DNA from: the human T2T-CHM13v2.0 reference genome, Homo sapiens
Reading direction: 5' to 3' (one strand)
DNA: 64,000 bases
Assembly (NCBI RefSeq): GCF_009914755.1
Contig: NC_060930.1
Positions 33,143-61,706 of the stretch are shown one piece after another. Within the stretch, counting starts at the first letter, position 1, and each line of letters opens with the position of its first letter. The notes below the pieces were generated by a model that saw only the letters and a program-made list of their open reading frames with translations, was not told the origin of the DNA and made no database searches. The position numbers were made by a program, and so were the translations under genes.

Positions 33143-33317
33143 CTGCCTCTGGGCGCGCTCTGCCTCCTCCCACTCGCGCAGCGCCCGCTCCTCCGCCTGC
33201 CGCTGCAGCTGCTCCTCCTTCTCCCGGGCCTGCTCGGCTTCCAGCCTGCGCGACTCCTCCTCACGGCGAGTCGTCCTCTCTTCAGCCACACGTTGAGCCA
33301 ATTCCTCTCTCTTTTGT
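33143..33317 (-). CDS. MAP7: MAP7 exon 12 (175 nt)
   Basis: ttccag|ACAAA ... GCAG|gtgcg; QKREELAQRVAEERTTRREEESRRLEAEQAREKEEQLQRQAEERALREWEEAERAQRQ. Confidence 0.97.
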
Positions 33318-44637: not shown

Positions 44638-44762
44638 CGCTGTGCCATGAATGATCCTCCTGCGAGAAGAGCCCTCAGGTGGTGTTACAAAGAGTTTTGG
44701 TCGATCCATCGAATTTCTAGAGTGTGCAGCTTTGTAGGGCATGATGATGGGGCTGCAAGATG
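44638..44762 (-). CDS. MAP7: MAP7 exon 8 (125 nt; alternative upstream acceptor at 44786 adds VIPICPRS)
   Basis: ttcag|CATCT ... GCG|gtgagt; ASCSPIIMPYKAAHSRNSMDRPKLFVTPPEGSSRRRIIHGTA. Confidence 0.96.
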
Positions 44763-55823: not shown

Positions 55824-55934
55824 CTCTATCTGGAGAATTTAGTAAAGTTGCAGATGAAGAGGAGAGCCGCTTGCTAATGACGGGATCAACATATTTCGAA
55901 AGATTCATGGTGGAAACTGACCGCCTGTCTGGAT
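55824..55934 (-). CDS. MAP7: MAP7 exon 6 (111 nt, phase-symmetric)
   Basis: ttttag|ATCCA ... AGAG|gtac; DPDRRSVSTMNLSKYVDPVISKRLSSSSATLLNSPDR. Confidence 0.96.
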
Positions 55935-56642
55935 CTAAAACAAATGGAGATAATGCTAATTGACAGCCAACATGTAGGATTGCAATTTCCTAGTTCACTG
56001 ATGGAAGGAAAAACTAGGATTGGATGCTTTCTGCTCTATTTCTAGATCTGTCATAATAACACAGTTTTCTAAGTGGACATTTTAAAGGTAACTTAAAGGC
56101 TTAGAAATAAAATTCATTTCTCTTAAAGGATAAAATAAATATTTATTTCACCAGCTTGTCAGCCATGGAAATTCAAGGATACAAGTGGATGAAGACAAAA
56201 GGAAGGCCAGTGAAGGGCTTCTAAAATAGTGGAGGCACACTATGAAGCAAAAGAGGACCATAAAAGCGAATGCCTTTGAAATCTCCAAAAGAAGGAACAA
56301 TGGAGTGGTAACATGCTGGTAACATAGAACGCAAACACTGGGATAAAAAGAACACCAGGTTCTGTGTAATTGCTGATAACTTTGCTTACAGAGTCATTTT
56401 ACCCAGGGCATTAAAGTTCATTATAGAAGAAGGCTCGTTGTTGTTGTTGTTGTTTAAATAAAAAAAAAGAAAAAGTAAAAGAAACATTCTAAGTGTGGAA
56501 AGGATTTTTAAGAAACGTTCCTTTATTAAAAATCTAAGAGCCACAGCTCTGTGCTTATGAGTTAGTGTGGCTACAAATGTAGAATTAGCACACACATTCA
56601 TGAACAATAGCATTGTTCATCCTATAGTCAAGTAATTTTAAA

Positions 56643-56936
56643 ATTTCTTTTTTTTTTTTTTGGGGAGACAGGGTATTGCTCTGTTGGCCAGGCTGGCATG
56701 ATCATAGCTCACTGCAGCCTCGATCTCCTGGGCTCAAGTGATCCTCCCACCTCAGCCTCCCAAGTAGCTAAGACTCTAGGCAGGCATCACTACGCCCAGC
56801 TAATATTTTAATTTTTTTGTAGAGGTGGGGTTCTCATTACGTTGCCCAGGCTGGTCTCAAATTCCTGGCCTCAAGTGATACTCCACCTTGACTTCCCAAA
56901 GTGTTGGGATTACAGGCATGAGCCACTGTGCCTGGC
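56643..56936 (-). mobile_element. AluJ
   Basis: Alu consensus. Confidence 0.87.
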
Positions 56937-57854
56937 ATAATTTTAGAATTCTTAAGTTCAAATCAGAAGGGAAATAAGCATACAAAAGGCAAGAATTAGC
57001 AGCCTGCTGTTGGTATAGTAGACCCAGGTTATAATCATGCTCATTAGGATAAACGGTGTTCCTCAAATAACACTGCATGTAATGAAAGTCTAAAAAGTCT
57101 TATTCCTAATTTATCCAGGAGGCAGGTGGATGTTCTGATCTACAGTAGCCAAAGTGAAAGGGGTTTTTGCTGTATTTTGTTTTATTTTTCTGTTGTTACC
57201 TGCTTCTAAAACTAAAACAAAAATACTCCTTGTGGGAGATGCTTCCAAAACTCAGTACCCGTTGGTCTAACCTTGGCAGTAAGAAAAAATTGCTGCAAAC
57301 TTTTCCCTGTGTATTTTTGACTACCATTTATAGCACACTGGTAATAAGCAAGTCTTTGATTAACATCAGTCATTTCTATCTTCAGCTGGGATTCATTTTA
57401 ATGGCTGAAGCAATTTTATTATTAAAAAAAAACCACTTCTGTGCCTCAAATTTATACTTAGCTGATGGACTCTTAGGGCAATCCAAACATAAAGAAAGGA
57501 TTTAGGGTCAAACATCAAAAGGAACATCCTAGTGATGACATGTGAGGTACAGGGTAGGAAGAGGAATACGAAAGTCATTTCCAGGTGATTTTATAGCAGT
57601 ACATTTTCTGATATTGCTTTATATGTTATGCTTTAGTTGGGGGAAAATTGTGTCCACACGCAGGCCTATCCTCAGGCAGATTCTCAACAGGTTATTAAAA
57701 ACATTTAATTCTGCTTCAGAGTAAGTGGAAAAAATGAGTTACAGTGGATCCTTGTATCCTAAAAAGTATCATTAGTAGTAAAGCATCTAAATCTGCCATA
57801 AATTGTTAAAATTATGGAGGCACACCATGAATTTGTTTATTACTTAATATATAA

Positions 57855-58221
<367 letters not shown>

Positions 58222-58974
58222 TGATCGTATCAAGTTTTACAGACCAGTGCTAGTCGATGGCCAGCAGCTGGCCAAGACAGGAATTTTAATGTAGACAGTT
58301 TCTATGATGTGTTTGTTGGTCAGCAAACCATGATAGAGTACCCATCATACATCAGGTATTGTTGTCAAGTAAAGGGTATTCAAAATGAATAAGACCTGGT
58401 TGCTGTTCTCAAGATCATAGCAAATCATTTTCTGGTCTTTGAGAACTTGGCAAATCCCATTTATTTTCTGGCAAACTTCTCTGTTCCAGTATAGGAACAA
58501 TTTATTATAATTCACAACCCGTATTAAAATGAATTTTACCCAACAGCTTGCGAATGCAACACTGGTTTCTCTTGTTCTGAGTGGCAGAAATAAATGTCAT
58601 ATATTAAGCTTTGAGTGTGGAGGCAAAAAATTAAGCTAGGCAGCTTACCATCTCCTCAAAAATGTCTGATGATCTAACAGTGTATATCTGCCATATACAT
58701 GTAAAGCAGGAAGTCAGGTAAAACAAATATATGATTATAAAAATATATACCCTGCCAGGTTTACTGTATGAAAGGTATATAAAAAATATCCCATCAACAA
58801 AATCTCATATGTAAATGATCTGTATAACAGATTTAATATGTATCCCACCAGCTACTGCTGGGTCATGAACAACCAAGAAAACAGAAGTGCTTTCATATTT
58901 GGTTCACTGTCATAAGAAAGTAAGTTGTGGTGATATTCCTTGGACTTAAACAAATTTTTAATTTTTTAAATTAC

Positions 58975-59262
58975 ATTTCTGAATCAGGTTCTCACTCTGT
59001 CCTCTAGGCTGGAGTGCAAAGGCAGACTCTTAGCTCACTGTATCCTCAAATTCCTGGCCTCAAGTGATCCTCCTGCCTCAGCCTCCTAAGTAGGTGGGAT
59101 TATAGGAACATGCCACCATGCCTGTCTAATTTTTTAAAAGAATTTTTTGTAGAGATGGGGTCTATGTTGCCCAGGCTGGTCTTGAACTCCTGGCCTCAAG
59201 GGATCCTCCTGCCTTGGCCTCCCAAAGCACTAGGATTACAGGCGTGAGGTACTGCACCTGAT
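58975..59262 (-). mobile_element. AluJ
   Basis: Diverged Alu consensus. Confidence 0.83.
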
Positions 59263-59770
59263 CCTAGATTTTTAATTTTAATAAAGCAGTTATAAGAGAT
59301 CTATAGAATGTTAACAATGAAAGAGAACAGAATAAGCAAACAAAAAGAGGTCCACAGTTATTTAGCTTAAAACTAAAAGTGGCAACAGCAGTAATGATTG
59401 ACGGGGAAAAAAGCTAAACTGGAAGTACTTTGATCCCAGGTAATTTTTTTAGCTAAAAAACATTTTTTAAAGGTTTAATCCTGACATTGAAAAAAGAAAT
59501 AAAAAACATAAATAGAAAACCAAAATGATTGTTTAAAGGGAAAGCAAACATTCCACATGTAATTACTTTATTTCAACACCTTTAAGTCACCTGAGTCATA
59601 TTATCACACTTAAGAAACACTGTTCCAATCCCAGATCTACGTCTATGCGCTAGGGTATTAGGCATGCGTTGATGACTAAGGTGGTGATGCTTCAGCTATT
59701 GATGCATCGGCCCTAGGTCTGAGGTGCTAGCTACAGGTCAGGCAATTGGCAATCACAGGGATGTCTGTAC

Positions 59771-59857
59771 CAGCTTTTCTAGTACCACCAAAAGTTATGA
59801 AGTGGTGGTCCAGGCCTGCTAAATCCAGAGAGGAGAATGATGATTCAACAAAACCAC
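59771..59857 (-). CDS. MAP7: Candidate 87-nt in-frame MAP7 cassette exon in intron 5
   Basis: Acceptor ttttacattctgtctccag|, donor GCTG|gtacag, phase 1-1, no stop: GGFVESSFSSLDLAGLDHHFITFGGTRKA; not in the canonical 749-aa protein as recalled. Confidence 0.6.
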
Positions 59858-60544
59858 CTGGAGACAGAATGTAAAACAATGATTTTTCAAAGCAAATTTA
59901 AAAAAAAAAGGTTATCAGATTCACACAAATAAAAAAATAAAAACTGACACACTATGTAAAATTCCAGGGGTATTGAATTTACAGTACAAAAATAAAGCCT
60001 TTCAGTAAATCCAAATTTCAATATGATTTTATGTCCATTCAGAAAGGAGGAAATAGCTTAGTCATTTACTATTTCTAGCTCAATAAACCTATATATTTTC
60101 TTACAGAGCATTAGTGTTGCATATACTTTAGGGTCAGAATACATAAGCTCATAGTATTGATTCTGGTCAGTCAATATAACTATAATCCTTCCAGAGAAAA
60201 AGATAAAACTAGTTAACTTATTCCATAATCCTGAAACCCTAATGCAAATAGAAGACTAAAATAATGTAGTGTTGAAGCTAGCATGTTTATTTAGAAACAC
60301 TACATAGATTTCTCCCTTTAAGGAATTTTGTAACATGAGAAAATTGGCCTGTGTTAAGGGAAAGAGGCCCTTACTTCTTATCTCCATCACCCTCTTATCC
60401 TCAAATAGTGAAAGATTCATTTCATTGTTGTTTAATTATTTCAGCAGGATTTTTGTTTCGCAAACATAGATTTAGAAGAAAGAAGGAAACACCCTGTTAC
60501 TTTCAGGAAAATAAAGACTAATTTTCAAAGTGGTCACTGTTTAC

Positions 60545-60662
60545 CTGCACTGTGGATGCTAGGGCTCCCATGGAGAGAGCCTCCCCACGACCAACGGTTA
60601 TGCTTCTGTTTTGGCTTCTGGCTCCTTTCCATTGTGCGCCGTACAACAGCTTCGTGGCGTTC
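60545..60662 (-). CDS. MAP7: MAP7 exon 5 (118 nt)
   Basis: ctaag|GAACGC ... GCAG|gtaa; ERHEAVVRRTMERSQKPKQKHNRWSWGGSLHGSPSIHSA. Confidence 0.97.
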
Positions 60663-61481
60663 CTTAGATGGAATAGAAGAGCTGAGGATTAGATTCCAGC
60701 TGGTTGTTTGAAGCTTCTTCAATTTAAGGCAGAATGGAGTGAGGAGTACTACTTCAATTCCCACTCTACTATTCTTGATCTCTAGCTGAACTTCTATACC
60801 ATAAGGTGAGACTAGTGTCAATCTGGGAGGGTCACTTTAGTCATTAGGTCCCAGTTCATAAAGCCCTTGGCGAACAACAGGCATTCAAATAAACGACCCT
60901 TACTACTAGGGTGTGCGTGATGCTTTCATGAACACACGTAAGCATGGTAGTGCAGATCTTAGCTTCAACTGATGCTTATACGATACCATATTTACCATAC
61001 GATACCATATTTAAAAAACAGTTCAGAATCTGAGAACATGGGTAACCCTGACCCCATGACTTATTGAGTTGTATGACCTTGTGTACCTTACCCACTCTGA
61101 GTCTAAATTTCTATTTTTATACAAACTGACATATAATGCATGCTAAAGGATTGAGTAAGGGTTAAATGAGATAATCTATGTGTAAATGTTTGCAAATGGT
61201 AAAGACTACAGAAACTCAATTACTTGGAGTGGTCTTAATACTCAGTACAGATGAATTGCACTTCAATAAGTTATAGGTTTGGACCAGAGAAATGGGCTTT
61301 TAAACTTTCTGTGGCAATAATAATCATCAGCCCATTCGCTACCTCTCATACCCTGAACTCCCTAGAAACTGTAGCCATCTGTAAAGCTGATCACTCTGAA
61401 ACCATTTTGCTTTGCACCCTGCACCTGACTGCAAAGTTTCACAGAAAGTTTGCTGCATGTCTGAACTAGAGGAGCCACTCA

Positions 61482-61706
<225 letters not shown>

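What the first reader, a model, noticed from the sequence alone, without database searches (positions are those of the whole stretch)
59771..59857. 87-nt frame-preserving candidate MAP7 cassette exon missed by the ORF track
Seen: polypyrimidine acceptor (ttttacattctgtctccag), donor CTG|gtacag (same intronic gtacag as exon 6), length 29 codons, phase 1-1 matching exons 5 and 6, no stop, and non-repetitive sequence. It would insert GGFVESSFSSLDLAGLDHHFITFGGTRKA just after the microtubule-binding coiled coil. I recall a similar 'GFVES..LDLAGL' segment in non-mammalian Map7 proteins but cannot verify this here. Inference: a conserved, tissue-restricted exon that could modulate microtubule binding or provide a short linear motif.
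Basis: partly seen in the sequence, partly recalled or inferred. Interest (0 to 1): 0.7.

Follow-up and report, generated by a model that had tools for sequence, protein, structure and literature searches.

The report
Hidden MAP7 exon with two exits
The human MAP7 gene, which helps kinesin motors haul cargo along microtubules, holds an exon that is absent from the RefSeq table but present in the gene models of other mammals, birds and reptiles; an old spliced copy of the gene shows that this exon could also end the message early, which would give a short MAP7 predicted to block motors rather than help them.

Summary
The 87-nt exon (59857-59771, minus strand) is real. It has AG/GT ends, phase 1-1 and an open frame. 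The same 29-aa insert sits at the same place in MAP7 models of 40 named amniote species, with 10 of 29 positions invariant.

An intronless MAP7 retrocopy on contig C18 joins exons 3, 4 and 5 to this acceptor. It then reads past the weak donor and ends 12-17 nt after an AATAAA at 59572, followed by a short A-run. So an ancestral primate germline mRNA used this as a 303-nt last exon. That would encode about 218 aa: the microtubule-binding helix without the P region or the kinesin-binding domain. Similar fragments inhibit kinesin-1 in vitro (PMC8985661).

Not shown: present-day human junction or 3'-end reads, tissue pattern, protein, or function. No spliced short protein was among 13 hits, and the read-through tail is not conserved.

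Verdict: a composite internal/terminal exon. It is already modelled as a cassette in other species; its terminal use was not found in 10 literature searches.

The parts
59771..59857 (-). 87-nt cassette form of the exon (29 codons, phase 1-1) between MAP7 exons 5 and 6
   Evidence: same insert in models of 40 named amniote species
59858..59880 (-). 3' splice site and pyrimidine tract (15 of 20 pyrimidines; the 14 annotated acceptors have 12-19)
   Evidence: used exactly in the C18 retrocopy
59765..59773 (-). weak 5' splice site CTG|gtacag, lowest score of 15 donors
   Evidence: approximate matrix, values recalled; boundary matches orthologue models
59555..59857 (-). 303-nt alternative last-exon form (read-through of the donor to the poly(A) site)
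   Evidence: retrocopy aligns continuously from 59857 to 59555, then diverges into an A-run
59727..59770 (-). read-through coding tail of 14 aa and TAG stop (59729-59727)
   Evidence: tail length is 14 aa in 4 of 10 unspliced orthologous ORFs and 8, 39, 49 or 137 aa in the others
59567..59572 (-). AATAAA poly(A) signal, first of 9 in the intron below the donor
59505..59554 (-). U/GU-rich downstream element (52% T, at most 6 A per 20 nt, so no internal-priming A-stretch)
59555..59619 (-). 65-nt block identical in gene and retrocopy; contains a strong GT site CAG|gtgact at 59590, 18 nt before the AATAAA
   Evidence: permutation P 0.0016, block noticed after the fact; donor score; recognisable in two unnamed orthologous ORFs
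59858..60084 (-). upstream intron that still aligns to unspliced ORFs from other species
   Evidence: no clean control: intron beside exon 5 also aligns in some records
60545..60662 (-). MAP7 exon 5 (end of MTBD), spliced to the candidate in the retrocopy
   Evidence: hub table
61506..61669 (-). MAP7 exon 4 (MTBD helix), present in the retrocopy
   Evidence: hub table
55824..55934 (-). MAP7 exon 6, downstream partner of the cassette form
   Evidence: hub table

Best explanation
This is a genuine, amniote-wide MAP7 exon with one acceptor and two exits: a weak donor that gives an in-frame 29-aa cassette in other species' gene models and likely in human, and an intronic poly(A) site that ended an ancestral primate germline mRNA and would give a short, microtubule-binding-only MAP7 predicted to hinder kinesin-1 and dynein. 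Shown: the acceptor, the splice from exon 5, read-through of the donor and a 3' end just after AATAAA (retrocopy); the cassette boundaries and peptide conservation (orthologue models). Inferred: U1 recognition of the weak donor competes with cleavage at the poly(A) site about 200 nt downstream. Donor use inserts a predicted-disordered, hydrophobic 29-aa segment between the two microtubule-binding regions (MTBD and P region), most likely a docking motif for a partner not identified here. Poly(A) use gives about 218 aa lacking the P region and the kinesin-binding helix. Germ cells are the likeliest site of the short form, because heritable retrocopies arise in the germline or early embryo and MAP7 decorates the spermatid manchette.
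For: Retrocopy G000:C18:71810170-71810788 has lost three introns, 536 of 617 aligned bases identical. It ends 12-17 nt after the first AATAAA with 10 A in 11 nt; the gene there is T-rich, not A-rich. A random end would fall 10-30 nt after any AATAAA of the intron 4.9% of the time, and after the first one 0.55%. The donor is the weakest of 15. 67 of 68 hits carry the full insert before exon 6 (hits selected by similarity, so not an inclusion rate). Human identity in this exon is 66-72% to dunnart, crocodile, turtle, anole, quail and emu, above that of the annotated exons ending at 44762, 38577, 38156 and 34840 in the five sauropsids. Exon-skipped forms exist too (6 of 13 hits; chain 7sgs_A). 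MAP7-N and MAP7-MTBD inhibited kinesin in vitro (PMC8985661, passages). MAP7-EGFP decorates manchette microtubules (10.1101/2025.09.16.676497, passages).
Against: No human RNA evidence was obtained. The hub's RefSeq table lists no such exon among 39 transcripts. None of 13 short hits is a spliced short isoform. The read-through tail differs in length between species, and one unnamed orthologous ORF (P0009) seems to lack the AATAAA. The retrocopy has no target-site duplication and records one ancient event. The N domain alone binds microtubules only transiently (t1/2 2.6 s) and had no branching or growth effect in neurons (PMC6133550, passages), so a short form may be a weak inhibitor in cells. 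The manchette signal does not distinguish isoforms. Primates have drifted in the motif core: human has S,S where 38 of 40 species have T and 36 of 40 have F, and macaque also has L13S. None of 10 MAP7 circle junctions in a human brain data set uses this donor.
Confidence: 0.62

Rival explanations
1. Only the 87-nt cassette is selected; the retrocopy caught a rare premature-polyadenylation product with no function.
For: Protein conservation stops at the donor. No short spliced protein among 13 hits. The hexamer seems lost in P0009.
Against: Canonical AATAAA with a U-rich downstream element; 65 identical bases up to the cleavage site in gene and retrocopy. Rare RNAs are less likely to be retrocopied (established knowledge, not tested here).
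Confidence: 0.22
2. The element mainly turns MAP7 down at the RNA level: the strong donor at 59590 gives a 267-nt exon with a stop codon that would trigger nonsense-mediated decay, and early polyadenylation diverts transcripts from the full-length form.
For: The 59590 donor scores 8.4 against 2.1 for the cassette donor and lies in the conserved block; the block is recognisable in two other species.
Against: No transcript using 59590 was seen. Peptide-level conservation over amniotes needs a translated, stable product.
Confidence: 0.08
3. The exon is real in other amniotes but is decaying in the human lineage and is hardly used now.
For: Absent from the hub's human RefSeq table; primate changes in the motif core; weakest donor.
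Against: Both splice sites and the frame are intact; macaque models include it with 28 of 29 identical residues; exon 6 has the same weak intronic donor bases and is used.
Confidence: 0.08

Closest known systems
MAP7/ensconsin isoform models of other amniotes (e.g. Macaca fascicularis X1, 807 aa; rabbit, horse, dunnart, quail, crocodile)
   Same: Identical exon boundaries and a homologous 29-aa insert between exons 5 and 6.
   Different: Not in the hub's human RefSeq table; none of the orthologue proteins retrieved shows the last-exon form.
Composite internal/terminal exons with intronic polyadenylation (IgM secreted/membrane switch is the textbook case; recalled)
   Same: Weak donor followed within about 200 nt by AATAAA and a U-rich element; read-through adds a short tail and a stop.
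   Different: Here the exon itself is also skippable, and the evidence for the 3' end is a retrocopy, not RNA reads; regulation untested.
Engineered MAP7-MTBD / MAP7-N fragments (PMC8985661; N domain in PMC6133550)
   Same: The predicted short product keeps the MTBD (60-170) and lacks the kinesin-binding domain.
   Different: It would be natural, ends 43 aa after A175, and lacks the P region (175-316) altogether; its existence as protein is not shown.
Processed pseudogenes (L1-mediated retrocopies)
   Same: Intronless, 5'-truncated, A-run at the 3' end, neutral decay (39 non-synonymous and 13 synonymous codon changes, one internal stop, indels).
   Different: No target-site duplication; about 20 nt of the host repeat seem to be missing instead (by eye).

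Membership tests
conserved cassette exon | canonical AG/GT sites, symmetric phase, open frame | tested here: met
conserved cassette exon | coding conservation in orthologues at the same position | tested here: met
   40 named species, 18-28 of 29 identical, 10 invariant positions
conserved cassette exon | both included and skipped forms exist | tested here: met
   included: 67 of 68 hits; skipped: 6 of 13 hits and 7sgs_A; mostly predicted models, from different species
conserved cassette exon | both junctions seen in human RNA | not testable with these tools
   no RNA-seq access; upstream junction seen only in the retrocopy
composite terminal exon / intronic polyadenylation | weak donor with downstream AATAAA and U/GU-rich element | tested here: met
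   (donor matrix approximate)
composite terminal exon / intronic polyadenylation | spliced transcript ending 10-30 nt after the hexamer, not at a genomic A-run | tested here: met
   retrocopy end 12-17 nt after AATAAA; at most 6 A per 20 nt in the gene; ancestral transcript only
composite terminal exon / intronic polyadenylation | poly(A) signal conserved beyond primates | tested here: inconclusive
   seen only through translated ORFs: the upstream block is kept in P0088 and P0009, the hexamer seems altered in P0009
composite terminal exon / intronic polyadenylation | 3'-end sequencing peak in living tissue | not testable with these tools
   no such data on hand
processed pseudogene (C18 copy) | precise loss of introns | tested here: met
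   three junctions contiguous
processed pseudogene (C18 copy) | 3' A-tail remnant | tested here: met
   10 A in 11 nt, short
processed pseudogene (C18 copy) | target-site duplication | tested here: not met
   best shared word 7 nt with 1 mismatch
neural microexon | length of at most 27-51 nt (definition recalled) | tested here: not met
   87 nt
known short linear motif (CRM1 NES or LIR) | pattern beyond chance and kept in orthologues | tested here: inconclusive
   patterns present but found in 31% and 37% of shuffles; macaque L13S breaks the NES pattern
known protein domain | match to Pfam, PDB or Atlas cluster | tested here: not met
   0 Pfam families, 0 PDB sequences, no usable Atlas hit; pLDDT under 50 in both models

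The most novel reading that the evidence does not exclude
Human germ cells still make a 218-aa MTBD-only MAP7 by intronic polyadenylation at this exon. It acts as a natural motor roadblock or dominant-negative on spermatocyte and manchette microtubules, so one exon switches MAP7 from kinesin-1 activator to inhibitor.
Probability: 0.3. Interest if true: 0.78.

Novelty: new member of a known kind. Interest (0 to 1): 0.56.

Why it matters
MAP7 is a required kinesin-1 cofactor. Its microtubule-binding helix blocks motors and its C-terminal part rescues them (PMC8985661), and male mice lacking it are infertile (10.1101/2025.09.16.676497). A natural isoform with only the blocking half would give cells a built-in switch, and C-terminal tags and many antibodies would miss it. 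The cassette adds a conserved 29-aa segment that the 749-aa chain used for the solved structure lacks. An exon missing from the RefSeq table also means that variants in it are scored as deep intronic.

Tried and rejected
Reading P0001-P0004, P0009 and P0087-P0090 as short spliced isoforms: rejected, they begin with translated intron and are unspliced ORFs.

Internal priming as the cause of the retrocopy's end: rejected.

Equivalent exon in paralogues: a profile of 40 exon peptides found nothing in the full corresponding introns of the two paralogue loci on C1 and C23 (taken as MAP7D1 and MAP7D2, names recalled). The matching intron of the third paralogue was not examined.

Structured RNA: z -0.72; Rfam gave one chance match, E 0.33. 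Fold: disordered in both models; no fold search was run. The second MAP7 retrocopy on C1 covers only 3' exons and is uninformative.

Literature: 10 full-text searches, including 'MAP7' with 'intronic polyadenylation' (0 papers) and approximate hg19/hg38 coordinates (2 irrelevant hits), found no description of this exon or of a short MAP7 isoform. Term look-ups in PMC10932545, PMC11791180, PMC6092797 and 10.64898/2026.08.06.743133 concerned MAP7D1 or MAP7D2; PMC11245308 had no hit; PMC7804943 gave false hits; PMC2780955 lists a brain cDNA without structure; PMC12123824, PMC8812575 and PMC2551623 only mention E-MAP-115 in passing. Supplement searches of four papers showed no event at this exon; two files of PMC10932545 and one of PMC7804943 were not searched. 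Komada 2000 and Penttila 2003 are not held.

Full report
Observation. The stretch 59857-59771 on the minus strand is 87 nt, starts after ...ctgtctccag and ends at CTG|gtacag. Inserted between MAP7 exons 5 (60662-60545) and 6 (55934-55824) it keeps the frame to the normal stop. The sites alone prove little: 3 stretches in this intron pass the same crude filter, the candidate included. The donor is the weakest of 15 under an approximate matrix whose values I recalled (2.1 against 3.2-11.5).

Cassette use in other species. A search with the 43-aa read-through frame gave 25 hits among 34 candidates, 20 of them full-length ensconsin models with the insert at exactly this place. A second search with the dunnart region gave 68 hits among 177 candidates; 67 carry the full 29 aa and one squirrel model uses an inner donor. 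The 109 candidates that did not pass were not seen, and the hits were chosen by similarity, so this is no inclusion rate. One protein for each of 40 named species (12 mammals, 28 birds and reptiles; further isoforms of the same species left out) is 20-28 of 29 identical to human in mammals and 18-20 of 29 in sauropsids, with G1, F3, F8, L11, D12, A14, G15, L16, H19 and G25 invariant. No amphibian or fish appeared, which does not show absence. These are mostly predicted models; their RNA support was not seen. Exon-skipped forms exist as well (6 of 13 hits, read; chain 7sgs_A).

The retrocopy. A DNA search of the own genome found one other copy, on C18. It is intronless: the end of exon 3 (locus L039), exon 4, exon 5 and the candidate follow each other without gaps at the three junctions, 536 of 617 aligned bases identical. 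It does not leave at the proposed donor but continues 216 nt to window 59555, 12 nt after the first AATAAA of the intron (59572-59567), then reads five unmatched bases and 10 A in 11 nt. The gene is T-rich there (52% T, at most 6 A per 20 nt), so internal priming is unlikely. A random end would fall 10-30 nt after one of the 9 AATAAA in 4.9% of cases and after the first in 0.55%. The copy lies inside a multi-copy repeat (24 of 28 matches are to the flank; I recognise it as L1 from memory). It has no target-site duplication and has decayed neutrally (39 non-synonymous and 13 synonymous codon changes, one internal stop). It keeps L at a site where human, macaque, snub-nosed monkey and tamarin have Q, and T where human and macaque have I. 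Two sites suggest, weakly, insertion before the simian radiation. It shows that a germline or early-embryo mRNA of a primate ancestor used this acceptor as a 303-nt last exon.

Mechanism. One acceptor has two, perhaps three, exits. (a) The weak donor gives a 29-aa insert at A175|D176 of the 749-aa chain, the border between the MTBD (60-170) and the P region (175-316; both ranges from PMC8985661, abstract and passages). The insert has no Pfam, PDB or Atlas match and is below pLDDT 50 with and without an alignment. A conserved hydrophobic core in a disordered linker most likely docks a partner (inference); NES-like and LIR-like patterns are present but arise in 31% and 37% of shuffles. (b) Read-through adds 14 aa and a stop and ends at the poly(A) site, giving about 218 aa without the P region and the kinesin-binding helix (Pfam MAP7 domain at 527-675 of the macaque protein). 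In vitro MAP7-N and MAP7-MTBD inhibited kinesin, and the C-terminal half added in trans did not rescue (PMC8985661); the short form is therefore predicted to be a roadblock. (c) A stronger GT at 59590, 18 nt before the AATAAA, would give a 267-nt stop-containing exon or bind U1 and silence the poly(A) site. It lies in 65 bases identical in gene and retrocopy (permutation P 0.0016, noticed after the fact). No transcript for (c) was seen. MAP7 is expressed in germ cells and decorates the manchette (10.1101/2025.09.16.676497, passages), which fits but does not show germ-cell use of (b). I recall a germ-cell E-MAP-115 mRNA of about 1 kb, close to the length expected for (b); the papers are not held and this is recall only.

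Against. No present-day human RNA was available. The hub's RefSeq table has no such exon, and GENCODE was not checked. None of 13 short hits among 14 candidates is the spliced short form, though clustering at 90% could hide one. In 10 unnamed ORFs that run past the donor the tail is 14 aa in 4, 8 aa in 3, and 39, 49 or 137 aa in the rest. In P0009 the residues over the hexamer differ from human, so the signal seems not universal. The N domain alone exchanges fast (t1/2 2.6 s) and did not promote branching or axon growth (PMC6133550, passages). The paper on MAP7 family rescue (PMC6446838, passages and section 6) says nothing on this exon in what I read. Human has S9,S10 where 38 of 40 and 36 of 40 species have T and F, and macaque has L13S, so constraint may be looser in primates. 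None of the 10 MAP7 circles in one human brain data set uses this donor (PMC10231643, passages and supplements). A profile of the exon found nothing in the corresponding introns of two paralogues.

Novelty and verdict. The cassette is already in gene models of many species, so it is new only to the human RefSeq table given here. The last-exon form and its retrocopy were not found in 10 searches of a library that lacks most subscription papers. Composite exons with intronic polyadenylation are a known kind; this is a new member with an unusually direct functional prediction. Interest 0.56; probability 0.3 that the short inhibitor form is made and used in human germ cells.

Noticed in passing
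G000:C18:71810170-71810788 (L002:1189-1807): Processed MAP7 retrocopy of the short transcript; the frame over exon 4 to the candidate still matches as a 133-aa open stretch although the copy is decayed. Whether it is annotated was not checked.
   Followed up: yes
G000:C1:42682347-42685764 (L022, L023): Second processed MAP7 copy covering only the last five exons and the 3' UTR (87-97% identical), from the full-length mRNA.
   Followed up: partly
window 59555-59619: 65-nt block identical in gene and retrocopy, with a strong GT site and a TGACTCA element; why the retrocopy kept it unchanged is unexplained.
   Followed up: partly
P0025 (ground squirrel model): Uses an inner donor, giving a 24-aa insert; human has GT dinucleotides at the equivalent place.
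   Followed up: partly
window 60545-61669 and 55824-61669: Two abundant brain circular RNAs of MAP7 (PMC10231643) use exons 4-5 and 4-6; the second spans the candidate exon and could include it.
   Followed up: partly
G000:C3:78366114-78366713 (L036): Decayed, stop-containing match (34%) to the MAP7 C-terminal region, possibly an old retrocopy of a family member.
   Followed up: no
window 33143-33317: The window translates ...RALREWEEAER... where the 749-aa PDB chain has ...RALREREEAER...: a coding difference (R/W) in this assembly.
   Followed up: no
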